Below are positions 31,824 to 42,181 of a stretch of DNA of 64,000 bases, piece by piece. The DNA lies in contig JAOAGL010000001.1 in assembly GCA_026415775.1 (NCBI GenBank), positions 206,233-270,232 of the forward strand, read 5' to 3'. The position numbers were made by a program, and so were the translations under genes. Below the pieces are notes generated by a model. It was not told the origin of the DNA and did not search any database. It worked only from the letters and a program-made list of their open reading frames with translations. Each line of letters begins with the position of its first letter. The stretch's first letter is position 1. This stretch comes from Patescibacteria group bacterium (GTDB taxonomy: Bacteria > Patescibacteriota > Minisyncoccia > UBA6257 > JAAZHW01).

Positions 31824-33236
31824 ATGCTGAAATTTTTTAATAATCTGACGCACAAACTGCAAATATTTAAACCTTTAAAAGATAAAAAGGTTGGTTTGTA
31901 TACTTGCGGTCCAACAGTTTATTCTTATGCCCATATTGGTAATTTACGCACTTATATTTTCGAGGATGTATTAAAACGCGTTTTGAGATATAACAATTAT
32001 AAAGTTAAACACGTGATGAATATTACTGATGTTGGACATTTAACTTCGCAGGCTGATAGCGGCGAGGATAAAATCGAATTAGCAGCAAAAAAAGAAGGAC
32101 AAAATGCTTGGCAGATAGCCAAATTTTATACCGAAGCTTTTAAAAAAGATATTCAAGCGCTTAACATTTTAGAACCAGATATTTGGGTGAAAGCAACTGA
32201 TACCATCAAAGATCAAATAAAATTAATTCAGATTTTGGAGAAGAAAGGTTATATTTATCGCATTACCGATGGAATTTATTTTGATACTTCAAAACTAAAA
32301 AATTATGGCCGTTTATGGCCGAAAAAACTAAAAAAGAAAATCAAAGAAATTGATTTAGAAAAATATGCACGCATTGAAAAAATTGAAGGAAAGAAAAATT
32401 TAACTGATTTTGCTTTATGGAAATTTACGCCACTTGGCGTTAAAAGACAAATGGAGTGGGATTCGCCATGGGGCAGGGGTTTTCCTGGTTGGCATACGGA
32501 GTGTGTGGTGATGGCTTCGAAATTTTTGGGCATTCCTTTTGATATTCATTGCGGCGGGATAGACCATATTCTAATTCATCATACAAATGAAATTGCTCAA
32601 GCCGAGGCGGCTTATGGTAAAATTTTGGCTAATTATTGGCTGCATGGCGAGTTTTTAATTTTAGATAAAGGAAAAATGTCAAAATCCGAAGGCAATTTTA
32701 TTACTTTGAATGATTTAATAGCTAAAAATTTTAATCCTTTGGCTTATCGATATTTTTGTTTTACAACTCATTATCGGCAAAAATTAACTTTTTCATGGGA
32801 AGGATTAGCTGCTGCCCAAGCTGCTCTTAATCGGTTGTATGAAAAAGTTAAAGAGTTTAAAAAACAAGTGTCAAAGACTCAATTAAATTTGGGACAAAAA
32901 GCTAAAAAGTATCAGAAAAAATTTAATTATTTTATTAGTGAGGATTTAAAAATTCCTCAAGCATTGGCTTTGATGTGGCAGATGATAAAAGATAAAAATA
33001 TCAGTGCTTCTGAAAAATATTATTTACTTTTGGATTTTGATAAAGTTTTGGGTTTAAAATTAGCAGAATTAAAAGAAGAAAAAATTCCTTCTAAAATTTT
33101 GAAATTGGTTAATGAACGAGAGATGTACCGCCAGCAAAAAAATTATCAAAAAGCTGATGAATTAAGAGAAAAAATTAAAAACCTCGGCTATTTAATTGAG
33201 GATACCCCTTCGGGCCCGGTGGTGCGGAAAAGATAG
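31824..33236 (+). CDS. cysS: Cysteinyl-tRNA synthetase
   Basis: [17 protein letters not shown] carries the HIGH-class motif. ...WHTECV...KMSKSEGN is also present. Confidence 0.95.
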
Positions 33237-33299
33237 GAGTTGTTGACAAAATAGAAATTTTAATTTATTTTAAATTTAGTCGATTAATTTTTTGCAAAC

Positions 33300-33470
33300 A
33301 TGCAAAAAGTTATACTACCGAAAGTAATTACTAAAAATAAAAGCAAAATTATTAGAGAAAGTGGTTGTTGTTTTCGAAGTTGTGGTGGGGTACCTTGTGT
33401 TTCAATTTATAATAATTCGGAAAATTTTAAAAAGTTAAAATTAACAAAAAGAATAAAGAAAATTAAATAA
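33300..33470 (+). CDS. Unannotated 56-aa Cys-rich small ORF and candidate RiPP precursor peptide: MQKVILPKVITKNKSKIIRESGCCFRSCGGVPCVSIYNNSENFKKLKLTKRIKKIK
   Basis: I translated this by hand from the 270-nt cysS/ABC-F intergenic gap; at 56 aa it falls below the 60-aa floor of the ORF track. It is the first ATG after an in-frame TAA. A 56-codon open frame is improbable by chance in AT-rich DNA. Four Cys fall within 13 residues, and the C-tail is Lys-rich. The ABC-F RBS and ATG sit 35 nt downstream. Like most genes in this window it has no SD. Confidence 0.5.
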   Translation: MQKVILPKVITKNKSKIIRESGCCFRSCGGVPCVSIYNNSENFKKLKLTKRIKKIK

Positions 33471-33505
33471 AGGTTCTTTAAAAAATAAAAAAATGGAGGT
33501 GAAAT

Positions 33506-35203
33506 ATGCATATCAATATAAAAGATATTTGGAAAAGTTACGGGAATAAAAATGTTCTTAGGGGTATATCTTTTTCTCTAGCGCCCGGCGAAAAGGTAGC
33601 GTTAGTCGGGCATAATGGCGTTGGCAAAAGCACGCTTCTTAAAATTATTGCCGGTTTAGAGGCATTTGATAAAGGAGAGGTGTTTTTGCCGCGTAATGCG
33701 TGTATTGGATATTTGCCGCAGGAATTTGTTTTTCGAGAAGATGAAACTGTGAAGAATTGTTTTTGGCGTATAGTCGGAATTGCCGAATTAAAATTTCATA
33801 TGGAAGAATTATTAAATAATCTAGATGACGAGGAAAAAATAAAAACGTTTACTGAGCTTCAAGAAAAATATCAAAAGTTGGGGGGAGAAAATTTTGATTA
33901 TAAGATTAAAATTATTCTGGCTGGATTGGGATTGGCAAAAATAGAATTACATCAAAAATTAAAAGAATTGAGCGCTGGTGAAAAAACAAAAATTATTTTG
34001 GGAGCTATTTTGCTTAAAGGAGCAGATCTTTTATTATTGGATGAGCCAACTAATAATTTAGATATTCCAGCTTTAATTTGGTTAGAAGAATTTTTAAAAG
34101 CGACATCAGCTACTTGTTTGGTAGTTTCTCATGATAAAAAATTTTTAGATAATATTACTTCGCGAGTTTTAGAAATTGATTGGGAAACTAGAAAAGTAAA
34201 CATATTTCGAGGGAAATATTCTGAATATTTGGATTTTAAGATAAAACAACTAAATCGATTAAAAGAAGAGTTCCGCCGTCAACAAGAAAAAATCAATAGT
34301 TTAAAAAAAGTTGCTGAAAAAAATAAAGATTGGGCTCGAAAAGGTAATTATCAATTGCCACCGGACAATGATAAATATTGTCGAGGAATGCGAAGAGATA
34401 GATCTGCTAAATTAGGAAGAAAAGCTGCGGTAATACAAAAGAAATTAGAAAGAATAAAAAAAATTGATTTACCAATTGAACGAGAACCACTAACTATTGA
34501 TTTAAATGCGCAGTTAATTGCTTCAAAACCAAAAATTATTTTAAAAGAGGTAATGGTTGGCTACAAAGATAGTTTTCAATTGAGACCGATTAATTTAGAA
34601 ATTGCATATGGAGATAGGATAGGAATTCTTGGTTTAAATGGGGTAGGTAAATCCACTTTATTAAAAGTGCTTAGTGGAAGAATGTTGCCTTTAAAAGGAG
34701 AAATAAAAATAGGGGAATCATTGATTATTGGAGATTTAATTCAAGAGGAAAATAATTTACCGCTTGATAAGACCTGTTTGGATTTTATTGAAGAAAAGAC
34801 TGGTTGGCAAAAAGAAAAGGCTATCAATTTAATTCATAAATTTAATTTTTCTTTTGATGAAGCAACCCAAACGATTAAAACTTTAAGTTCTGGTCAGCGT
34901 ACTCGCTTATTGTTGGCATATTTTTCTGCAATCTCTGCGAACGTATTAATTTTGGACGAACCAACTAATCATTTAGACCTTGAAGCTATAGAAGCATTAA
35001 AAGAAGTTTTAAAAACGTACAAAGGAACACTCATTGTAGTTTCGCATGATAGGGATTTTATAGAACAAATTAAATTGACAAACTTCTATGTTATAGAAGA
35101 CGGAAAGTTAAAACAATTGTCGAGTTACAGCGATTATCTTGCTAAAAGTGTTTTAATTGCTAAAAGAATTATTCGCCAATTAAATTTAGAGCGTCGTTAT
35201 TAA
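33506..35203 (+). CDS. ABC-F family ATPase with two tandem nucleotide-binding domains and no TM domain (EttA/Uup/ARE-like ribosome-associated factor)
   Basis: NBD1 has GHNGVGKST / LSAGEKTKI / LLLLDEPTNNLD. NBD2 has GLNGVGKST / LSSGQRTRL / ILILDEPTNHLD. A ~100-aa basic inter-domain linker lies between them. The RBS is GGAGGTG. Confidence 0.85.
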   Translation: MHINIKDIWKSYGNKNVLRGISFSLAPGEKVALVGHNGVGKSTLLKIIAGLEAFDKGEVFLPRNACIGYLPQEFVFREDETVKNCFWRIVGIAELKFHMEELLNNLDDEEKIKTFTELQEKYQKLGGENFDYKIKIILAGLGLAKIELHQKLKELSAGEKTKIILGAILLKGADLLLLDEPTNNLDIPALIWLEEFLKATSATCLVVSHDKKFLDNITSRVLEIDWETRKVNIFRGKYSEYLDFKIKQLNRLKEEFRRQQEKINSLKKVAEKNKDWARKGNYQLPPDNDKYCRGMRRDRSAKLGRKAAVIQKKLERIKKIDLPIEREPLTIDLNAQLIASKPKIILKEVMVGYKDSFQLRPINLEIAYGDRIGILGLNGVGKSTLLKVLSGRMLPLKGEIKIGESLIIGDLIQEENNLPLDKTCLDFIEEKTGWQKEKAINLIHKFNFSFDEATQTIKTLSSGQRTRLLLAYFSAISANVLILDEPTNHLDLEAIEALKEVLKTYKGTLIVVSHDRDFIEQIKLTNFYVIEDGKLKQLSSYSDYLAKSVLIAKRIIRQLNLERRY

Positions 35204-35228
35204 AAAGAAAAAACGACGCTCTATTTTT
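35188..35228 (+). terminator. Hairpin plus T-run overlapping the ABC-F stop; a possible attenuator or partial terminator ahead of the rSAM gene
   Basis: AGAGCGTCGTT-(13-nt loop)-AACGACGCTCT-atttttaa. Confidence 0.4.
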
Positions 35229-35243
35229 AATTGTAGTTTTATT

Positions 35244-36494
35244 ATGAAACAGAAAATACAACAATTAGTAAAAATTAGAAGAGAAAAGCGCTATTTTCTT
35301 GCTTATTTTATAGAATATAGAAAAATTTTATTGGTTAATGAAATTGGAGCAAGGATATTGGAATTATTTTTTAATGAAAATAAATCTATTTTAGAAATTG
35401 CTGAATTTTTTATGAGGGGAGGAAAAAAATATAAAAAATCAGATATAAAAAATAATATTAGAAAATTTTTAAAAAAAGTTGCAAAAGAATTAGATAAAAG
35501 AGATTCGGGTGAATGGCCAATAATAGAAGGAGATTTTTTAGAAACCCCCATAGGAGTAGAACTTCAAATAAATACAACTTGTAATTTAAGATGTAAACAT
35601 TGTTTTCAAAGTAATTATAGTCGCATAATGCCATTTTCTCGCATAAAAAATATTCTATCGCTTTTATATAAAAATAATATATTTGAAATTAATTTAGTAG
35701 GCGGCGAACCATTTTTACATCCTAATATTTTCGAGATAATAGAAATGTGTTGTAAAAAATACAATTTTGCTGTAAATGTGATCACCAATGGTACATTATT
35801 AACAAGCAAAATTATTAATTTACTTTCTAAACATAGAGACAAAATAGCATTATTAATAAGCCTCGAAGGAGTGAAGGATACAAACGATTTAATTAGAGGA
35901 AGAGGAACATTTAAAAAAGTTGAGAGGACAATAAAAAAATTAAAGAAAAAAAGGATATATTTTGAATTCTCTTTTACTTTGAACGCATTGAATATTAAAT
36001 ACTGGAAACAATTTTTGTTATACGCTCATAAATTAAAAGCCCCTTGCAATTTTAATTTATTCAAACCATTTTCCAATAAGCAGAAATATTTAGTTATTCA
36101 CCCATTTGATTATTTCGAATTTATTAATGAGTTATTTATTTTTAAAAAAATAAAAAAAATAGAAACCGGTATTACAGATGCTGCTATATGGTCGTATGTG
36201 AATAAATTAATGCCACGCAATCAATGCAAAGCAACTTTAACAGGTTTAAATATTAATGCAAAAGGAGAAATGGTTCCTTGTGCTTTTTTTGATGAAGTTG
36301 GTTATTATAAAAACTTGCCAACGATAGATAAAAATTTTTTAAAAAATTGGAAATATAATTATTGGTTTAAGGATTTCAGAAAATATAATTTAAGAGAATG
36401 TCAATTTTGTTCTTATATTTTTAATAAATCTCGCGCTGCTTTTAATCCGTATGGTTTAAGCGCTTTTAAAAAATGGCAAAGAATTCGTCAATAA
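35244..36494 (+). CDS. Radical SAM enzyme with an N-terminal PqqD-like RiPP recognition element and a C-terminal Cys-containing SPASM/twitch-like extension; a candidate peptide-modifying maturase
   Basis: Residues ~20-90 (ILLVNEIGARILELFFNENKSILEIAEFF...) fit the PqqD/RRE winged-helix pattern. The cluster motif is CNLRCKHC (CxxxCxxC) and GGEPFLH is the SAM-binding motif. The C-terminal region carries about 5 Cys (APC, NQC, VPC, RECQFC). Confidence 0.85.
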   Translation: MKQKIQQLVKIRREKRYFLAYFIEYRKILLVNEIGARILELFFNENKSILEIAEFFMRGGKKYKKSDIKNNIRKFLKKVAKELDKRDSGEWPIIEGDFLETPIGVELQINTTCNLRCKHCFQSNYSRIMPFSRIKNILSLLYKNNIFEINLVGGEPFLHPNIFEIIEMCCKKYNFAVNVITNGTLLTSKIINLLSKHRDKIALLISLEGVKDTNDLIRGRGTFKKVERTIKKLKKKRIYFEFSFTLNALNIKYWKQFLLYAHKLKAPCNFNLFKPFSNKQKYLVIHPFDYFEFINELFIFKKIKKIETGITDAAIWSYVNKLMPRNQCKATLTGLNINAKGEMVPCAFFDEVGYYKNLPTIDKNFLKNWKYNYWFKDFRKYNLRECQFCSYIFNKSRAAFNPYGLSAFKKWQRIRQ

Positions 36495-36883
36495 AAAAGA
36501 AATTTTTTTGATATTTAGCCATTTTAATTTAATAGATAAATATTACAAATTTTTACTTTGTTTTCACTATAATTTTTATCGATTGATTTTTTGTTTCTTA
36601 ATGTAAACAGTGTACATTGGAAAAATTGCCGAACTAGATATTTAATAAATAAAATGACGCACATTATTAATTCATGATTTTTTGAAAAATGCTCCACTGA
36701 TTCATAAATGCTTTCCAAATTATTAATTAAGCGGTGCATTAATTGAAAATCAGAAACTTTTTGCATTAAATAATCGTATGACACTCGGTTTTCAATAATG
36801 GTTTCATTAATAATGTTTGCAGTTGAAAAAGGGTTTTGAGGAATGCGGGTCGGTAGTTTATATTTTTTAGCGCTTTCTTATAT

Positions 36884-37441
36884 ATGTTTTTTATTATTTT
36901 ATTAATTATTATCTTTATTTTGTTCACGCATATTTATGCGGGTATTATTGCTGCTCCATTTGTATCCACACCTAAAAATTATATAAGAAAAGCATTAGAA
37001 ATATGCCAACTTAAAGAGGGAGAAAAGATTTATGATTTGGGTTCAGGTGATGGTCGTGTTTTAATTATAGCAGCCAAGGAATTTAATGCCGAGGCTTTGG
37101 GTTTTGAGCTTTCTTATTTTTTATATCTTATTTCAAAAATTAATATTTTTTTGCGTGGTCTTTCAAAAAAAGCCAAGGTGAAATGGTCTAATTTTTATGA
37201 AGAAGATTTAAGTCTGGCAGATGTGATATTTTGCTGGTTAACACCAAAAGCTTTCCCCAAATTGGTCAATAAATTTAATCAAGAATTAAAGATTGGAACC
37301 CGCGTTATTACTTATTCTTCGCCTCTTGGTTTTTGGCAGCCAGAAAGAGAGGTTGAACTTCAGAGCGAAGGAATAAAATTTTTTGGAAAAACTTTAATCA
37401 AGCCAGCCAAAGTCAAAATATTTTTTTATTGTAAAAAATAG
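36884..37441 (+). CDS. Small class I SAM-dependent methyltransferase with an N-terminal hydrophobic anchor
   Basis: IYDLGSGDGRVLI is motif I and DVIFCWL follows it. Confidence 0.6.
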   Translation: MFFIILLIIIFILFTHIYAGIIAAPFVSTPKNYIRKALEICQLKEGEKIYDLGSGDGRVLIIAAKEFNAEALGFELSYFLYLISKINIFLRGLSKKAKVKWSNFYEEDLSLADVIFCWLTPKAFPKLVNKFNQELKIGTRVITYSSPLGFWQPEREVELQSEGIKFFGKTLIKPAKVKIFFYCKK

Positions 37442-37667
37442 ACAGCATTTTATTTAAAAAATCTACATTTTTACAGATTTACTTCTTCAAAATTCAAAGA
37501 ACCTTTATTTTTGAGAATTTTTTAATTAAAAACTCATTTATTAGGAAATCTTGACACAATTCAAAAAATATCCTAAATTAAAATCAGAACTTTAAAAATA
37601 TATGTCTTGGATTCTGCGGGAAATCCGCGGAAAATCTCAACCAAGACAGAAAAAGGGGAGGTGTGAG

Positions 37668-38543
37668 GTGAAAAAGATTTTATTTTTTATTTTTGTTTTA
37701 ATTTTTCTGGTAATGGTGGTTGTTCCCACTGAAGCCCAGCAGCAGAAAAAAAGGGATAGGTGGGAGTTAGAACTGAGCTACGGGCAGTTTTGGGTAGTGA
37801 AACACGATCTGCCATCTAATCTTATATTTGTGAGAGAAAAAAATCCAGATTTTCAGCTGGCCCTGAGGTTGAGGATTTGGCGAGGGTGGTATGTAGGGAT
37901 ACTTGCGGGAATGAAAAAAGAAACTCAAAATGAATACTTTACAGATGAGATTTATACCAACTATTGGTGGCTAGAAGATAGGTTCGGAAACTTTCTGGCT
38001 AAGAATTATATAGAAAGAGACATCAGTGTTTTTAAAACAGCTCCTTATATTGGGGCAGAAACAAAATTAAATCTACTCACAATTAAATTTTCAAAATCCA
38101 TAGGGTTAACTCCCTATGGGAGGGCAGGGATAAAGAGGTGGTTTGCACAAACTGAAGGATTTTTTCACACAAAGGACTACATTCTTTACGATCTAGATAA
38201 AAGTACAAGTACTCCTTACATGATTTATAATTATACTGCTACTCCTGTAGGAGTAGGAAGATACCATGGAAAGGTAACAATTTGGTTGGCCAACCCCGAC
38301 GGTACGAAAGGCCCTGTAGTATATGAGGATGAGTGGCAGAATTATATGTCAAATATGAGGGCGGGTGGTATCTTTTTTTATGGTGGAGGAATGTCTTTGC
38401 GGATAGGAAAAGTTGGGTTAAATGCAGAATGGATTTTTGAAAGGCGGAAGGATAATATTTTTGATGGAGAGAATAAAAAGTTTATTGGAAGTAGAAAATT
38501 CCAACACGCCATGTGGCGGGTTGGGCTGGGATATAGATTTTAA
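37668..38543 (+). CDS. Secreted protein with a signal peptide and an outer-membrane beta-barrel-like C-terminus ending in Phe; start is GTG 37668
   Basis: The RBS AAGGGGAGG lies 6-7 nt before GTG. The signal peptide is KKILFFIFVLIFLVMVVVPTEAQQ. The C-terminal half shows alternating-hydrophobic beta-strand patterns and ends ...AMWRVGLGYRF. The N-terminal 22 codons in the track are probably not translated. Confidence 0.5.
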   Translation: MKKILFFIFVLIFLVMVVVPTEAQQQKKRDRWELELSYGQFWVVKHDLPSNLIFVREKNPDFQLALRLRIWRGWYVGILAGMKKETQNEYFTDEIYTNYWWLEDRFGNFLAKNYIERDISVFKTAPYIGAETKLNLLTIKFSKSIGLTPYGRAGIKRWFAQTEGFFHTKDYILYDLDKSTSTPYMIYNYTATPVGVGRYHGKVTIWLANPDGTKGPVVYEDEWQNYMSNMRAGGIFFYGGGMSLRIGKVGLNAEWIFERRKDNIFDGENKKFIGSRKFQHAMWRVGLGYRF

Positions 38544-38662: not shown

Positions 38663-41600
38663 ATGAATCACATATTATCAAAATACAAGCTTTTCTTATT
38701 AATCGGTCTATCTATTTTTCTTCAATTATTAGTCACCTATAACTTTACAAACATTAGCCAAGCAGCAATATCAAGGGGTTGCGCAACCTATGATGAATGT
38801 ACGACAAGGCAGGATTGTGAAGCAATCGGTGGAGTGTGGATTGTTACTGGGCCAGGTGGTATGGTTCAACCTGGTGTAATTATTGAAGAAGAGGGTTATT
38901 GTGTGCCACCAGGCGGAACTTCTCCCACACCAACATCAACAAAAACTCCAACACCAACAGCAACTCCTACTTCCACTTTAACGCCAACCCCAACTTCAAC
39001 TACAACTCAGACTCCGACGCCAACTTCCACTCCCACCCCCACTCCAACTCCAACAGGATGCGGAAGTTATACGACCATGGGGGATTGTGAGGCGGATGAA
39101 AATTGCGAATGGGTATTTTTATATGCAGATCCAAACGGATTAGAAGGTTATTGTAAAGATGCGGAACCGCCTCCGCCGGGATGTCTGCCAAGTTCTTTAA
39201 CTTATTCTAATTATAATGCCAATTTTACTTATCGCAGTGAATGTTACAATGTTATTAATCAAATTGGGAGCTCCAATATAATTAAAAGTTTTACTACCTC
39301 TCCAGAGTTTTTGAATTTTTATTCTTCTGGCTTGCCTGCTTTTAAAACAGGTGATTGTCCAGGTTCAAGCTTAAAAACTCAAGTTTGTTTTTATCCTGAC
39401 CCAGATAATTCTGCTTTTCGGCCAGCTTGGTTTTTTAAAAAAGCTTCTTCTTATACTTTTCAGAATAGTTGTGTGAATTGTACGATGGGAGGTGTAATGT
39501 CTGATAAAAATATAAGCGTGTATAATACTTCTTTATACAATGTACCTTGTGGCCCTTCTTATTCTACAGCCCCAGCCATTTCTTTAACTGCGACTGAAAA
39601 TACTGCTTCGGCACAATACAGACATTCGGTAAGCATCAATAAAGGCAAATGGGAAGGATATTCTATTAATGATGCGAAAAAGACTTTGATTTATGATTTT
39701 TCAATAGATAAAACCAAAATTTCTCTTGGCGATTCAGTGACTTTACATTGGAAAATAATAAATGGACCGGGTTATAGTTCAACTGGTGGTGGTTCAACTG
39801 GTGGAGGTGGATCCTTTCCTCCTGGCGAACCTCGTACACGACAAGAAGACCCTAATGCGCCGCCACCGGGTTGGGATGGAGGCGGAGGATTCCTTTATCC
39901 ATTGAAACAATTCAGTTTGGAGACGGTTAAAAATACTATTGCTCAATTATTTGGTATTTCTAAAAAAGCCGAAGCTTTAGAAAATTATCCTACCGAAGCA
40001 GAATGTTTGGCTCATGGTTGTGATTGGGTTTATGGCGCTTATAATCCGTGGGATCCTAATGCCCCAGCAGGTTGTATTTGTCCTTTAAATACTCAAATTG
40101 TGGTTCCGTCGCCTTCTACTCCTCCTTTGATTGCTTTGTTTATCGGCAATGCCACTTGTCAAAAAACTCCCCAGGAATCAGTTAATTGTCCTTTTCAGCC
40201 AAATCAAATTTATCCCTTAGTTACTTCTGTAAGCAATATTGAACCGACTAATTCTTTTTCGGTTAAAAATATCTTTCAAAAACTTTTTGGTTTAATTTCT
40301 CCAACTCAAGCGCAAACTGTTAGCGTCTTTGAAAAAACTTATGAAGGAACCCTAACTCTTTATCCTCAATCGCCAACCAATTTTTATTTGATTACTTATG
40401 GAATTATTGGGGAGGGTCCGGGATATATTTTATCCGAGCCAGTTCAAGTTGATATTGCCACTTATAATCCTTGGGTTGATTTGAAAGTTCAGAAATCACC
40501 AGGTCATGAATTTGTTGATGGTCCGGTCTGGATTAATAGTGGCGATGATGTTGTTCTCAAATGGAGTTCTAACGATGTTGATAGTTGTACAGCCAGCGCT
40601 AGCCCAACCAACAATCAATGGAAAGGAAACGTTTTATTACAAAACGAGGGATTGACTATCTCTGATATTGTTACCTCAACTACCTTTATGATTTCATGCC
40701 ATGGTTTGAATGGTTCAACAGTAAATGATTCAATAACGGTGACAATTGGGAAAACCGCATGGGTTAATTTAAGCGCTGATATAAATGGTTCTTTGAATGA
40801 TGGACCCGTGACTATTACTCAAGGGAAAAATTTAACTTTAACTTGGACTTCTGCTAACGTCACGAGTTGTTCTGCGAGCAGCGCACCTTTAAATTCTAGT
40901 TGGAATGGAAATGTGGCTACATCTGGTACTAAATTAATTACAAATCTTCAAGAATCAACAGATTTTATAATCACTTGCGACAAAGGAGCTTCGGACCATG
41001 TGATGGTCAATGTGGTTCCACAGACAGCAACGGTTAACATAGTGGTGAGATTAAATGGAGAGGCGCTTAATAATGCTGCTGTAAATTATGTATTAACCGG
41101 TCCAACAACCATTCAAGGAAGTAAATCAGGAGCTTTCAACATTGCTATTTCTTCTGCTTTGGGCGATTCCTATACCTTAACTTATCTTTCTGGTGGTCCA
41201 GAAGGTGCTAGTTTTGTTGGTTCAGAATCTCAATCTAGAATCATAAAACCGGGCGATGAGGTAACGTTCTATTTTGATTTTTCAACGCAAGATTTGTGTC
41301 ATATTGATGTTTCGGCCTTGTATAACGGACAGCCATGGAGTGGTAAATTATCCTACCTCTTAATAGGCCCGACTATTTTGACAGGTAATACAGTGCCTTA
41401 TACATTCCCTGCTGTACCGCCGGGTGTTTACTATATCTCTTATATTAGTGGTGGACCCGATAATTTTTTGGGTGTGGAATTAAAAAATGCTTTAACTTGC
41501 CCAGCGAAAGGTTCAATTACTTTTGGTTTGAAATTCGGAACTTCGCCGACGCCAACGCCGATTATACCGCCAGCTGAAATAGGCGATAACCCACCAACGG

Positions 41601-42181
41601 CCAAAATCGGCTGCGTGGCTGATGATATGATTAATTGTAGCGGTACCATTGATGGTGATTCTAATACTCCAACTATTACTTTGTACAATGCTTCCATTGA
41701 TCCAGACGGAGATATAAAAACTTGTCAATGGGCAGTAGCAGAAAATCCGTCCTTAAACAAAACCAGTTGTTCGCCGTTAATAATTGGTGATACGATTGGC
41801 AATTATAGTGTAACGTTGACGGTTATTGATTCCAAAGGACATTCTAGTCAGACATCAATTGTTGCCAAAGTGAAAGATGTGACGGAGTTAACGCCAAAAT
41901 TTGTTTGGGATCCTTATGTTCCGATTGTTAACAAGGAAACAAGATTTTTTGACAGGTCATTAACGCCGAAGGGCACATCATTGAAGACATGGAATTGGAG
42001 TTTTGAAGGGGCAAATATTGCTACTTCAACAGAGCCCAATCCAACCGTTATCTTTACAAGCATTGGTCCGAAAAAGGTTACTTTAACTGTTAAAAATTCA
42101 GCTAACGAAACAAAAACAATTACTCAAACAATCGATGTCCGAGCGGCAGCGCCAGAGTGGAAAGAGGTAATTCCTAGATAA
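38663..42181 (+). CDS. Large secreted cell-surface protein (1172 aa) with Cys-rich modules, a Thr/Pro linker, tandem Ig-like repeats and C-terminal PKD-like domains
   Basis: There is an N-terminal signal peptide. Two 4-Cys modules (CATYDECTTRQDCEAIGG...YC and CGSYTTMGDCEADENCEW...YC) flank a TPTPTS linker. A Gly-rich GGGSTGGGGS linker follows. Two ~95-aa tandem repeats each carry a conserved Cys pair, and PKD-like segments (KFVWDPYVPIVNKETRFFD...) lie near the C-terminus. Confidence 0.7.
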   Translation: MNHILSKYKLFLLIGLSIFLQLLVTYNFTNISQAAISRGCATYDECTTRQDCEAIGGVWIVTGPGGMVQPGVIIEEEGYCVPPGGTSPTPTSTKTPTPTATPTSTLTPTPTSTTTQTPTPTSTPTPTPTPTGCGSYTTMGDCEADENCEWVFLYADPNGLEGYCKDAEPPPPGCLPSSLTYSNYNANFTYRSECYNVINQIGSSNIIKSFTTSPEFLNFYSSGLPAFKTGDCPGSSLKTQVCFYPDPDNSAFRPAWFFKKASSYTFQNSCVNCTMGGVMSDKNISVYNTSLYNVPCGPSYSTAPAISLTATENTASAQYRHSVSINKGKWEGYSINDAKKTLIYDFSIDKTKISLGDSVTLHWKIINGPGYSSTGGGSTGGGGSFPPGEPRTRQEDPNAPPPGWDGGGGFLYPLKQFSLETVKNTIAQLFGISKKAEALENYPTEAECLAHGCDWVYGAYNPWDPNAPAGCICPLNTQIVVPSPSTPPLIALFIGNATCQKTPQESVNCPFQPNQIYPLVTSVSNIEPTNSFSVKNIFQKLFGLISPTQAQTVSVFEKTYEGTLTLYPQSPTNFYLITYGIIGEGPGYILSEPVQVDIATYNPWVDLKVQKSPGHEFVDGPVWINSGDDVVLKWSSNDVDSCTASASPTNNQWKGNVLLQNEGLTISDIVTSTTFMISCHGLNGSTVNDSITVTIGKTAWVNLSADINGSLNDGPVTITQGKNLTLTWTSANVTSCSASSAPLNSSWNGNVATSGTKLITNLQESTDFIITCDKGASDHVMVNVVPQTATVNIVVRLNGEALNNAAVNYVLTGPTTIQGSKSGAFNIAISSALGDSYTLTYLSGGPEGASFVGSESQSRIIKPGDEVTFYFDFSTQDLCHIDVSALYNGQPWSGKLSYLLIGPTILTGNTVPYTFPAVPPGVYYISYISGGPDNFLGVELKNALTCPAKGSITFGLKFGTSPTPTPIIPPAEIGDNPPTAKIGCVADDMINCSGTIDGDSNTPTITLYNASIDPDGDIKTCQWAVAENPSLNKTSCSPLIIGDTIGNYSVTLTVIDSKGHSSQTSIVAKVKDVTELTPKFVWDPYVPIVNKETRFFDRSLTPKGTSLKTWNWSFEGANIATSTEPNPTVIFTSIGPKKVTLTVKNSANETKTITQTIDVRAAAPEWKEVIPR
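38920..39060 (+). repeat. Low-complexity Thr/Pro-rich linker inside the surface-protein gene: (ACN CCN)n, encoding TSPTPTSTKTPTPTATPTSTLTPTPTSTTTQTPTPTSTPTPTPTPT
   Basis: The nucleotide periodicity is visible directly. It accounts for the spurious antisense ORFs at 38899-39191. Confidence 0.7.
40475..41035 (+). repeat. Two tandem ~95-aa Ig-like intragenic repeats, with approximate boundaries at 40475-40762 and 40763-41035
   Basis: VDLKVQKSPGHEFVDGPVWINSGDDVVLKWSSNDVDSCTASASPTNNQWKGNVLL... aligns with VNLSADINGSLNDGPVTITQGKNLTLTWTSANVTSCSASSAPLNSSWNGNVAT.... Confidence 0.5.

What the first reader, a model, noticed from the sequence alone, without database searches (positions are those of the whole stretch)
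33237..36494. Candidate RiPP-type biosynthetic locus: hidden Cys-rich small ORF, ABC-F ATPase and RRE-radical SAM-SPASM/twitch enzyme
The cysS/ABC-F intergenic gap is unusually long at 270 nt. It contains an unannotated 56-codon ORF with 4 Cys in 13 residues. An ABC-F ATPase follows 35 nt downstream. After it comes a radical SAM enzyme whose N-terminal ~90 aa look like a PqqD-type RiPP recognition element and whose C-terminus carries a Cys-containing SPASM/twitch-like extension. RRE + rSAM + SPASM next to a small Cys-rich peptide is the canonical architecture of sactipeptide, ranthipeptide and related thioether-peptide maturation systems. Such a locus would be unexpected in a reduced, housekeeping-dominated genome. 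The ABC-F partner is also atypical, since RiPP loci usually carry an ABC exporter, not an ABC-F.
Basis: partly seen in the sequence, partly recalled or inferred. Interest (0 to 1): 0.8.

Follow-up and report, generated by a model that had tools for sequence, protein, structure and literature searches.

The report
Cys-peptide, radical SAM, ABC-F cassette
A real, widely conserved but undescribed three-gene cassette: a small cysteine-rich peptide, the radical SAM enzyme that most likely modifies it, and a ribosome-protection ATPase, which together suggest a new modified peptide that targets the ribosome.

Summary
The 56-codon ORF (33300-33470) is a real gene. An invariant core, E-x-G-C-C-[L/F]-x-S-C-G-G-x-P, recurs in at least 60 different peptides, and the invariant residues are written with varied synonymous codons. 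These small ORFs almost always lie just upstream of a homologue of the window's radical SAM protein.

That enzyme has an N-terminal RRE fold, a CX3CX2C core and a twitch-like C-terminus with three invariant Cys. It is not a full SPASM domain. Its closest solved relatives are the peptide maturases SuiB and SkfB.

The ABC-F is not incidental. It sits next to the peptide/rSAM pair in 44 of 68 distinct loci, and in 11 of 12 with long flanks. It occurs in every gene order and on either strand, and it scores as a ribosomal-protection-like ABC-F.

Eight loci carry an adjacent Erm-type 23S rRNA methyltransferase. Eight carry a DUF2268 zinc protease.

Best explanation: an uncharacterised RiPP family, enriched in Patescibacteria, whose product acts on the large ribosomal subunit, with ABC-F or Erm as self-protection. 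The chemistry (thioether?) and the target are inferred, not shown. No family model or paper describes it.

The parts
33243..33271 (+). Sigma-70-like promoter candidate (TTGACA-17-TATTTT) just upstream of the peptide gene
   Evidence: One search gives a 10/12 match. The -35 hexamer is conserved in the close relative L169. On its own this is not significant: 24 such sites were found in the region against 25 expected.
33300..33470 (+). Precursor peptide gene (56 aa plus stop)
   Evidence: One search lists the ORF. Homologous small ORFs with the same core lie beside rSAM homologues in every family locus examined. There are 146 peptide clusters in the protein database, all 'hypothetical'. In L169 the ORF is kept by an in-frame 3-nt indel, and the core carries only synonymous changes.
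33318..33326 (+). Leader motif P7-K-V9 (P-x-[VILMA]), the candidate RRE-recognition element
   Evidence: The motif lies exactly 13 residues before the invariant Glu in 43 of 60 unique peptides. It was not part of the search pattern. Its role in RRE binding is inferred.
33357..33395 (+). Invariant core E20-S-G-C-C-F-R-S-C-G-G-V-P32, the presumed site of modification
   Evidence: The alignment is. Every invariant residue is written with varied synonymous codons across loci. C24 is the only Cys kept in the degenerate L008 variant.
33396..33467 (+). Variable C-terminal follower region (24 aa, Lys-rich here)
   Evidence: The length is conserved (median 24 aa) but the sequence and charge are not.
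33495..33501 (+). Shine-Dalgarno sequence GGAGGTG of the ABC-F gene
   Evidence: Read directly from the sequence.
33506..35203 (+). ABC-F ATPase (565 aa): two nucleotide-binding domains plus an interdomain linker, with no membrane domain. Ribosomal-protection-like type.
   Evidence: Pfam gives ABC_tran twice plus ABC_tran_Xtn. NF000355 scores 409.6 bits against a cut-off of 380, while EttA, Uup and the other housekeeping ABC-F models (PRK15064.1, PRK10636.1, PRK11147.1) fall far below their cut-offs. It is adjacent to the peptide/rSAM pair in 44 of 68 loci.
34364..34402 (+). Tip of the ABC-F interdomain linker, D287-NDKYCRGMRRD-R299
   Evidence: The motif D[ND]DKYxRG[FYM]xRDR is conserved in about 32 of 40 cassette-linked ABC-Fs. 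The linker is about 18 residues longer than in E. coli YbiT.
35244..36494 (+). Radical SAM peptide maturase (416 aa)
35244..35513 (+). N-terminal RRE (PqqD-like winged helix, about residues 1-90)
   Evidence: The AF2 model has strands at 9-14, 17-22 and 27-31 and helices at 33-44, 49-57 and 65-84. PF05402 hits 16 of 28 family members, best E 7e-11. The window protein itself does not reach a Pfam hit.
35580..35603 (+). C113-x3-C117-x2-C120 radical SAM cluster motif
   Evidence: Invariant in alignment A1.
36225..36410 (+). Twitch-like auxiliary Fe-S region: C328-x12-G341-x4-C346 ... C386-x2-C389
   Evidence: C328, C346 and C386 are invariant. C389 is present mainly in the Patescibacteria-type members. 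PF13186 scores 16.4 bits against a gathering score of 21.5 in the window protein, and hits 19 of 28 homologues.

Best explanation
This is a minimal biosynthetic cassette for a ribosomally made, post-translationally modified peptide (RiPP).

1. The 56-aa precursor is bound through its leader (P-x-V motif, 13 residues before the core) by the N-terminal RRE of the radical SAM enzyme.
2. The enzyme uses its radical SAM cluster and one twitch-type auxiliary cluster to modify the invariant core E-x-G-C-C-[L/F]-x-S-C-G-G-x-P. In most family members the auxiliary cluster has only three Cys ligands, which leaves an open iron site. The most likely chemistry is one or more intramolecular thioether cross-links from the Cys residues, possibly onto the invariant Glu.
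3. In some loci a DUF2268 zinc protease probably trims the product.
4. The mature peptide is proposed to bind the large ribosomal subunit near the peptidyl-transferase centre or exit tunnel.
5. The adjacent antibiotic-resistance-like ABC-F protects the producer's own ribosomes. In some loci an Erm-type 23S rRNA methyltransferase does this instead, or as well.

Shown here: the peptide and enzyme are a conserved pair, the enzyme has the architecture of a peptide maturase, and the ABC-F is genetically linked to the pair.

Inferred: the thioether chemistry, the ribosomal target and the immunity role.
For: **The peptide is a real gene.**
- The core is invariant across rSAM partners that are only 34-55% identical.
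- Synonymous codons vary at the invariant residues, and the leader motif sits at a fixed distance although it was not part of the search pattern.
- In the close relative L169 an in-frame indel preserves the ORF and the core carries only synonymous changes.

**The enzyme is a peptide maturase.**
- AF2 shows the RRE topology. PqqD hits 16 of 28 relatives and SPASM hits 19 of 28.

**The ABC-F is linked to the pair.**
- It is present in 44 of 68 unique loci, and in 11 of 12 with at least 4 kb of flank on both sides.
- It occurs in the orders P-A-R, A-P-R and P-R-A, and on the opposite strand in 13 loci.
- All six tested ABC-Fs (the window's and five from other loci) pass the NF000355 'ribosomal protection-like' cut-off.
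- They share a linker-tip motif.

**A second, mechanistically unrelated ribosome-resistance gene recurs.**
- An Erm-type methyltransferase lies directly beside the cassette in 8 loci. Of the three tested against NF000499 (cut-off 212 bits), two pass at 247.6 and 242.6 bits and the third scores 208, just below. Four of the eight have no ABC-F in view.

**Nothing else recurs** in the flanks except a DUF2268 protease in 8 loci.
Against: - No chemistry, expression or activity data exist.
- The window protein itself misses the Pfam thresholds for PqqD and SPASM.
- No exporter is conserved (it was seen only in L003), and a protease is present in only about 12% of loci. That is odd for a secreted antibiotic.
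- An invariant core is unusual for antibiotic RiPPs and more typical of cofactor-like or signalling peptides such as PQQ, mycofactocin and SCIFF.
- NF000355 is a broad model. Passing it does not show resistance activity, and the closest solved ABC-Fs include the housekeeping proteins YbiT, YheS and EttA as well as VmlR.
- Some loci lack an ABC-F despite long flanks (L121, and L008 between pheS and pheT).
- Co-divergence of ABC-F and rSAM is only moderate (Spearman 0.45).
Confidence: 0.55

Rival explanations
1. The cassette is an intracellular ribosome-control module and not an antibiotic with its immunity gene. The modified peptide stays in the cell and binds the cell's own ribosomes, for example to slow translation. 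The ABC-F evicts it, or Erm methylation desensitises the ribosome. In a variant of this idea, the ABC-F is a dedicated helper needed to translate the precursor.
For: - There is no conserved exporter, and a protease is found in only 8 of 67 loci.
- The core is invariant across phyla, as expected for a conserved internal target.
- Housekeeping ABC-Fs are known to resolve stalls on hard-to-translate nascent peptides (Chadani 2024 and Takada 2024, as cited in PMC12992588).
- The closest solved ABC-Fs include YbiT, YheS and EttA.
Against: - The ABC-Fs pass the resistance-like model and fall far below the EttA, Uup and PRK15064.1/PRK10636.1/PRK11147.1 housekeeping cut-offs.
- An Erm-type methyltransferase is more simply explained as protection from a tunnel or PTC binder than as a translation helper.
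- A dedicated translation factor for one 56-aa peptide has no precedent that I know of.
- The cassette sits in unrelated genomic contexts, like a mobile accessory trait.
Confidence: 0.17
2. The peptide/rSAM pair makes a cofactor-like, metal-binding or signalling peptide, comparable to SCIFF, mycofactocin or PQQ. The ribosome is not its target. The ABC-F and Erm genes are neighbours for reasons unrelated to the peptide's function.
For: - The invariant core and the minimal two-gene logic resemble SCIFF, mycofactocin and PQQ systems.
- The best NCBIfam hit is the mycofactocin maturase, although far below its cut-off (86.5 bits against 265).
- Some loci have no ABC-F (L008, L121).
Against: - The ABC-F is adjacent in 11 of 12 fully flanked loci, in several orders and on both strands.
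- Two different ribosome-resistance gene classes are the only recurrent neighbours apart from a protease.
- No redox partner genes recur.
- The peptide does not match SCIFF or any other NCBIfam or Pfam precursor model.
Confidence: 0.15
3. The small ORF is a regulatory leader peptide of the ermCL or ARE-leader type. Ribosome stalling on it would induce the downstream ABC-F, and the rSAM would be unrelated.
For: In the window the ORF lies 35 nt upstream of the ABC-F on the same strand. Resistance ABC-F and erm genes are classically controlled by upstream leader ORFs (established knowledge).
Against: - In most loci the peptide abuts the rSAM and not the ABC-F. The ABC-F may be upstream, downstream of the rSAM, or on the opposite strand.
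- The peptide occurs with the rSAM and no ABC-F (L008, L121).
- The gap does not fold better than shuffled sequence (z = -0.57), there is no Rfam hit, and no terminator lies between the ORF and the ABC-F.
- At 47-70 aa with a fixed-distance leader motif, the peptide fits an RRE substrate and not a stalling leader.
Confidence: 0.03
4. The radical SAM enzyme acts on something other than the small peptide: rRNA as Cfr or RlmN do, a protein as anSME does, or a small molecule.
Against: - An N-terminal RRE is present. anSME and Cfr do not have one.
- The strictly adjacent co-conserved peptide has an RRE-type leader motif.
Confidence: 0.03

Closest known systems
SkfB / sporulation killing factor system (Bacillus subtilis; sactipeptide, PDB 6efn)
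   Different: Identity is only about 20%. The TIGR04403 score is 51 bits against a cut-off of 300. The precursor is unrelated. The skf operon has an exporter and immunity membrane proteins, not an ABC-F. The product chemistry here is unknown.
SuiB/StrB-type and CteB/PapB-type RRE-rSAM-SPASM maturases (streptide, sactipeptides, ranthipeptides, SCIFF)
   Different: Those enzymes have a full SPASM domain with seven Cys and two auxiliary clusters. This family has only three invariant C-terminal Cys. The PapB model scores 72 bits against 340 and the AlbA model 82 against 850. The peptide matches no SCIFF or other known precursor model.
Producer-type and resistance-type ABC-F proteins (TlrC/CarA/OleB/SrmB, LmrC, VmlR, Vga, Msr, Lsa)
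   Same: Both are soluble proteins with two ABC domains and an extended interdomain linker. This one passes the NCBIfam 'ribosomal protection-like ABC-F' model. It is encoded inside a biosynthetic locus, as producer ABC-Fs are.
   Different: It falls below the cut-off of every named resistance subfamily (for example the producer model at 317 bits against 800). It has its own linker-tip motif. Known producer ABC-Fs accompany polyketide, aminoglycoside-like or non-ribosomal antibiotics. I know of none in a RiPP cluster, and none was found in the paper library.
Thiopeptide clusters with rRNA-methyltransferase self-resistance (thiostrepton tsr, nosiheptide nshR)
   Same: Both are RiPP clusters in which self-protection is achieved by modifying 23S rRNA. 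Eight loci of this family carry an adjacent Erm-type methyltransferase.
   Different: Thiopeptide immunity uses SpoU-type 2'-O-methylation of A1067 at the GTPase-associated centre. Here the enzyme is of the Erm (A2058 N6) type, which points to the exit tunnel or PTC. The biosynthetic chemistry is unrelated (established knowledge).

Membership tests
Radical SAM superfamily | CX3CX2C motif binding the SAM-cleaving [4Fe-4S] cluster within a partial TIM barrel | tested here: met
   C113, C117 and C120 are invariant. PF04055 scores 77.8 bits against 29.5. The AF2 fold matches radical SAM structures.
RRE (PqqD-like RiPP recognition element) | N-terminal winged helix-turn-helix of three beta-strands and three helices | tested here: met
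   The AF2 topology is b9-14, b17-22, b27-31, H33-44, H49-57, H65-84 at high pLDDT. PF05402 hits 16 of 28 full-length homologues. The window protein itself gives no PF05402 hit at E<=1.
RRE (PqqD-like RiPP recognition element) | Binds the leader of the cognate precursor peptide | not testable with these tools
   The only evidence is indirect: a leader P-x-[VILMA] motif at a fixed distance of 13 residues from the core in 43 of 60 peptides.
SPASM domain | Seven-Cys motif CX9-15GX4C ... CX2CX5CX3C ... C binding two auxiliary [4Fe-4S] clusters | tested here: not met
   Only C328, C346 and C386 are invariant, with C389 in a subset. PF13186 scores 16.4 bits, below the gathering score of 21.5.
Twitch domain (truncated SPASM) | CX9-15GX4C hairpin plus downstream Cys, enough for one auxiliary cluster | tested here: met
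   The sequence reads C328-x12-G341-x4-C346, then C386-x2-C389. SkfB, a twitch enzyme, is the top sequence match. Cluster binding itself was not tested.
Sactipeptide system | Cys sulfur to alpha-carbon thioether in the product | not testable with these tools
   This needs MS and NMR. The AlbA, SkfB and StsB family models all fall far below their cut-offs.
Ranthipeptide / SCIFF system | Cys sulfur to beta- or gamma-carbon thioether, with a precursor matching SCIFF or related models | tested here: not met
   The peptide hits no NCBIfam or Pfam model at E<=1. The PapB maturase model scores 71.9 bits against 340. The chemistry itself is not testable here.
Mycofactocin system | MftC equivalog score, and a precursor ending in ...GVY | tested here: not met
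   TIGR03962 scores 86.5 bits against 265. The peptide has no C-terminal Val-Tyr.
ABC-F ATPase | Two ABC domains joined by a helical linker, with no transmembrane domain | tested here: met
   ABC_tran occurs twice with ABC_tran_Xtn. Both Walker A motifs, both signature motifs and both Walker B-Glu motifs are readable in the sequence.
Ribosomal-protection (ARE-like) ABC-F | Score above the NF000355 cut-off, and below the housekeeping EttA and Uup cut-offs | tested here: met
   The window protein scores 409.6 bits against 380. Five ABC-Fs from other cassette loci score 408-444 bits.
Ribosomal-protection (ARE-like) ABC-F | Confers resistance by displacing a ribosome-bound inhibitor | not testable with these tools
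   This needs susceptibility assays and structural work.
Named ARE subfamilies (Vga, Msr, Lsa, Sal, OptrA, CplR, TlrC/CarA/OleB/SrmB) | Score above the subfamily cut-off | tested here: not met
   All are far below their cut-offs, for example the producer model at 317 bits against 800 and Vga at 275 against 725.
Leader-peptide attenuator of a resistance gene | A short ORF immediately upstream of the regulated gene on the same strand, with alternative RNA hairpins | tested here: not met
   The gene order and strand vary between loci. The gap shows no significant fold, no terminator and no Rfam family.

The most novel reading that the evidence does not exclude
The mature product may not be an exported antibiotic. 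It could be a cross-linked peptide that stays inside the cell and binds the cell's own ribosome at the tunnel or PTC as a translational brake. The ABC-F, or Erm methylation, would act as its antagonist. That would make this a three-gene ribosome-control module carried by ultra-small Patescibacteria and some Clostridia. The reading fits three observations: the invariant core, the absence of any conserved exporter, and the rarity of a protease in these loci.
Probability: 0.15. Interest if true: 0.9.

Novelty: new variant of a known kind. Interest (0 to 1): 0.75.

Why it matters
**A new lead for ribosome-targeting peptides.** If the inference holds, this is an undescribed RiPP family whose self-resistance genes (an ARE-like ABC-F and an Erm-type methyltransferase) point to the peptidyl-transferase centre or exit tunnel as its target. 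It would be a lead to a new ribosome-targeting peptide scaffold. To my knowledge it would also be the first RiPP cluster that uses an ABC-F for immunity.

**Specialised metabolism in reduced genomes.** The cassette is recurrent in Patescibacteria, whose reduced genomes are generally thought to have very little specialised metabolism. It may therefore bear on how these episymbionts compete with or manipulate their neighbours.

**Easy to test.** The cassette has only three genes. Testing it requires co-expression, mass spectrometry and in vitro translation assays.

**A natural substrate for an orphan ABC-F group.** The cassette would also provide one for a subfamily of ABC-F proteins whose function is otherwise unknown.

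Tried and rejected
- **RNA element in the gap.** Rfam on 33000-37700 found no credible RNA family. The 269-nt gap folds no better than shuffled sequence (z = -0.57). No terminator lies between the peptide ORF and the ABC-F. A riboswitch or attenuator reading was dropped.
- **Defence system.** PADLOC gave only generic ATPase and viperin-like radical SAM hits, so there is no known defence system here.
- **Peptide family models.** Pfam and NCBIfam give no hit for the peptide.
- **Species-representative genomes.** The genome-contig scan with the rSAM alignment returned mostly unrelated SPASM enzymes. Only four loci were true family members.
- **Mobile elements.** Plasmid and phage collections hold no homologue of the rSAM.
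- **Exporter.** The ABC exporter next to the cassette in L003 is not recurrent.
- **Window methyltransferase.** The 185-aa methyltransferase downstream in the window is syntenic only in the closest relative L169 and is not part of the conserved set.
- **Histidine kinases.** They recur in 6 loci, but this was not pursued. They are common in these genomes and are not consistently adjacent to the cassette.
- **Literature.** Eight full-text searches found no paper describing the peptide, the enzyme family or an ABC-F inside a RiPP cluster. The 2023 rSAM-RiPP compendium and the review of translation-targeting RiPPs do not mention ABC-F or Erm.
- **Co-divergence.** The correlation between ABC-F and rSAM identities is only moderate (Spearman 0.45), so it was not used as strong evidence.

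Full report
**1. Observation.**

The stated features are all present.
- cysS ends at 33236 and the ABC-F starts at 33506, which leaves a 269-nt gap.
- The gap holds an ATG-initiated 56-codon ORF at 33300-33470: MQKVILPKVITKNKSKIIRESGCCFRSCGGVPCVSIYNNSENFKKLKLTKRIKKIK.
- The ORF has four Cys within 11 residues.
- The ABC-F start follows 35 nt later, behind a GGAGGTG Shine-Dalgarno sequence.
- A 416-aa radical SAM ORF (35244-36494) starts 40 nt after the ABC-F.

The window is AT-rich (about 33% GC) and dominated by housekeeping genes such as ileS, truB, cysS and tRNAs. The identical rSAM protein is on record as 'radical SAM protein [Patescibacteria group bacterium]' on a 492-kb contig.

**2. The small ORF is a real, conserved gene.**

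Homologues of the rSAM at 34-55% identity were looked up in their own contigs, which have unrelated flanking genes. Every one has a small ORF with the same core. Examples:
- ...KESGCCFTSCGGTPF... (L002)
- ...KESGCCFRSCGGMPL... (L003)
- ...SETGCCFRSCGGKPC... (L004, Saccharibacteria)
- ...IEAGCCLTSCGGSPA... (L006, Falkowbacteria)
- ...VETGCCLRSCGGSPA... (L085, a Clostridium sp. MAG)

I then made an independent test that did not use the enzyme. A degenerate DNA pattern for E-x-G-C-C-[L/F]-x-[S]-C-G-G-x-P was scanned against the metagenome collection and gave 79 loci. All 79 are small ORFs of this type. Where the contig reaches far enough, the family rSAM is adjacent; the one exception is L096, where a different radical SAM gene takes its place.

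Three findings show protein-level selection.
- Across 60 unique peptides, the invariant residues use all four Gly codons, both Cys codons and both Ser codon families.
- A leader motif P-x-[VILMA] was not part of the pattern, yet it lies exactly 13 residues before the invariant Glu in 43 of 60 peptides (alignment).
- In the closest relative (L169, rSAM 86% identical) the ORF is preserved by an in-frame 3-nt indel, and the core carries only synonymous changes.

A profile search found 146 such peptide clusters of 47-88 aa. All are 'hypothetical' and none has a Pfam domain. The window's own peptide is among them, as called by JGI (P0217). The peptide matches no Pfam or NCBIfam precursor model.

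**3. The radical SAM enzyme.**

*Family.* The family is compact. About 94 full-length homologues are followed by a drop from E 1e-52 to 1e-25. Only about 15 full-length clusters exist at 50% identity among 1.84 billion representatives. No curated NCBIfam model reaches its cut-off. The best are the mycofactocin maturase at 86.5 bits against 265, N_Twi_rSAM at 86.3 against 170, AlbA at 81.8 against 850, and PapB at 71.9 against 340.

*Structure.* An AlphaFold2 model built on 28 family members has pLDDT 92.3 and pTM 0.90. It shows an N-terminal beta3-alpha3 winged helix at residues 9-84, which is the RRE topology. The window protein gives no PqqD hit by itself. PF05402 does hit 16 of 28 full-length relatives, with a best E of 7e-11, and SPASM hits 19 of 28.

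*Solved relatives.* All the closest solved structures are peptide or protein-modifying rSAM enzymes.
- Profile search: SkfB 1.6e-29, then SuiB and CteB.
- Foldseek: SuiB 1.4e-20, CteB, SkfB, TigE, anSME.

*Cysteines.* The invariant Cys are C113, C117 and C120 (the radical SAM cluster) and C328, C346 and C386. C389 is present mainly in the Patescibacteria-type members and is replaced by Arg in most others. The pattern C328-x12-G341-x4-C346 ... C386-x2-C389 is the hairpin motif of SPASM and twitch domains, but it lacks the second Cys block. The domain is therefore twitch-like with one auxiliary cluster, not a full SPASM domain.

Three invariant ligands would leave an open iron site. The sactisynthase CteB uses such a site to bind a substrate Cys (established knowledge). 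That is compatible with thioether chemistry but does not prove it.

**4. The ABC-F belongs to the cassette.**

Among 68 loci with distinct peptides, 60 show the rSAM and 44 show an ABC-F. Most of the rest are short contigs. Of the 12 loci with at least 4 kb on both sides, 11 have all three genes.

The gene order varies:
- peptide-rSAM-ABCF (18 loci on the same strand, 7 convergent)
- ABCF-peptide-rSAM (7 on the same strand, 5 divergent)
- peptide-ABCF-rSAM (3 loci, including the window)

The ABC-F is on the opposite strand in 13 loci. This rules out a simple leader-peptide or attenuator relationship and argues for functional linkage.

The window ABC-F passes NCBIfam NF000355, 'ribosomal protection-like ABC-F', at 409.6 bits against a cut-off of 380. 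It falls far below the EttA and Uup cut-offs, those of the other housekeeping ABC-F models listed (PRK15064.1, PRK10636.1, PRK11147.1), and those of every named resistance subfamily. Five ABC-Fs from diverse cassette loci behave the same way, at 408-444 bits.

The ABC-Fs share a linker-tip motif, D[ND]DKYxRG[FYM]xRDR, in about 32 of 40 proteins. In the window it is D287-R299. The linker is about 18 residues longer than in E. coli YbiT. Both ATP sites look intact in the sequence.

**5. Other recurrent neighbours.**

Clustering all flanking ORFs from 67 loci found only two further recurrent genes.

- **An Erm-type 23S rRNA adenine methyltransferase, directly adjacent in 8 loci** (L094, L113, L118, L124, L126, L131, L142, L160). 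NF000499 scores 247.6 and 242.6 bits against a cut-off of 212 for the two best, and 208 for a third. Four of these loci (L113, L131, L142, L160) show no ABC-F in the DNA available.
- **A DUF2268 predicted zinc protease with an HExxH motif, in 8 loci** (L006, L106, L118, L121, L123, L129, L143, L167). PF10026 scores 1e-27 to 1e-29. This is a candidate leader or follower peptidase.

An exporter was seen only in L003. The window itself has neither an Erm gene nor a DUF2268 gene.

**6. Mechanism.**

The best-supported reading is a minimal RiPP cassette.
1. The RRE binds the leader.
2. The radical SAM and twitch enzyme modifies the invariant Cys-rich core.
3. The product acts on the large ribosomal subunit.
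4. The ABC-F, or Erm, protects the producer.

The ribosomal target is an inference from resistance-gene logic. Two mechanistically unrelated determinants both protect the PTC and exit-tunnel region, and they are the only recurrent neighbours besides a protease.

Thioether cross-linking is an inference from the enzyme's relatives and its three-Cys auxiliary site. The invariant E-x-G-C spacing recalls the NxxC and Cys-Asp/Glu cross-links made by NxxcB, PapB and QhpD (established knowledge). In the degenerate L008 variant (EFGFCFRGHGG) only the second Cys survives, which hints that C24 is the key residue.

Points against the antibiotic version of this model:
- the lack of a conserved exporter
- the rarity of a protease
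- the invariance of the core

These keep two alternatives alive: an intracellular ribosome-control role, and a cofactor or signal role.

**7. Comparison and novelty.**

The system works like the SkfB, CteB or PapB systems, but it fails the membership tests of each curated family. Its precursor is unrelated to any known precursor family.

rRNA-methyltransferase immunity is known for thiopeptides, with a different enzyme and a different ribosomal site. ABC-F immunity is known for macrolide, lincosamide and streptogramin producers. I know of no RiPP cluster with an ABC-F, and eight full-text searches found none.

Named sources place the family in many Patescibacteria lineages: Saccharibacteria, Falkowbacteria, Portnoybacteria, Paceibacterota, Kuenenbacteria and Parcubacteria. 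It also occurs in Clostridia. It is therefore not an oddity of this genome but a recurrent trait of reduced genomes.

I rate it a new variant of a known kind: a new RiPP family with an unprecedented self-protection partner.

**8. Limits.**

- There are no expression, chemistry or activity data.
- RRE-Finder, antiSMASH and a full ABC-F phylogeny were not available.
- The taxonomy of many metagenome loci is unknown.
- The peptide-pattern scan finds only peptides with the strict core, so divergent members such as L008, L146 and L096 are under-sampled.

Noticed in passing
window 36884-37441 (+): This is a 185-aa protein with an N-terminal hydrophobic helix and a SAM-methyltransferase domain. It gives weak hits to archaeal protein-lysine methyltransferase (73.7 bits against a cut-off of 200) and to PrmA/L11 methyltransferase. 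It is syntenic downstream of the rSAM only in the closest relative L169 and is not recurrent elsewhere.
   Followed up: partly
L008 5815-5967 (Portnoybacteria, between pheS and pheT): A family rSAM is paired with a degenerate peptide...EFGFCFRGHGG..., that keeps only one of the three core Cys. No ABC-F is nearby. It may be a decaying or functionally shifted cassette.
   Followed up: partly
L096 92-2494 (-): A canonical core peptide (VESGCCLRSCGGSP) is followed by an HExxH protein and a different, shorter radical SAM protein that lacks the RRE, instead of the family rSAM. This suggests the peptide family can pair with another maturase type.
   Followed up: no
L170 1070-4167: A complete ABCF-peptide-rSAM cassette lies on a contig of a MAG labelled 'Candidatus Woesearchaeota archaeon'. 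An ABC-F in an archaeon would be unusual. Mis-binning of a Patescibacteria contig is the simpler explanation, but this was not checked.
   Followed up: no
L085 7238-8916 (Clostridium sp. MAG): The ABC-F downstream of the rSAM is split into three called ORFs of 51, 348 and 184 aa. This is either a frameshifted or decaying gene or an assembly error.
   Followed up: no
L003 2909-4714: A 601-aa ABC exporter (membrane domain plus ATPase) lies immediately upstream of the peptide gene. It is the only locus of about 67 with such an exporter.
   Followed up: yes
Peptide start sites across loci (e.g. window 33278-33299; L006, L086, L088): Peptides of the 'CCL' type have strong GGAGG Shine-Dalgarno sequences. 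Most Patescibacteria 'CCF'-type peptides, including the window's, have AT-rich upstream sequence with no Shine-Dalgarno at all, although the adjacent ABC-F has one.
   Followed up: partly
window 34001-36000: The cassette region has the lowest GC content in the window, 0.279 against a mean of about 0.33. The cassette sits in unrelated genomic contexts in different lineages, which is compatible with horizontal mobility.
   Followed up: no
window 37602-38543 and 38663-42181 (+): A 313-aa protein gives a weak outer-membrane beta-barrel hit (PF13505, E 0.0014, below threshold). It is followed by a 1172-aa secreted-looking protein with Pro/Thr-rich linkers and Cys-rich N-terminal modules. A beta-barrel outer-membrane protein would be unexpected in a Patescibacteria genome.
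   Followed up: no
L092, L099, L134, L138, L164, L086 flanks: Large membrane-anchored sensor histidine kinases recur near the cassette in 6 loci, twice per locus in L092 and L099. This could be coincidence, since the family is abundant, or it could reflect regulation of the cassette.
   Followed up: no
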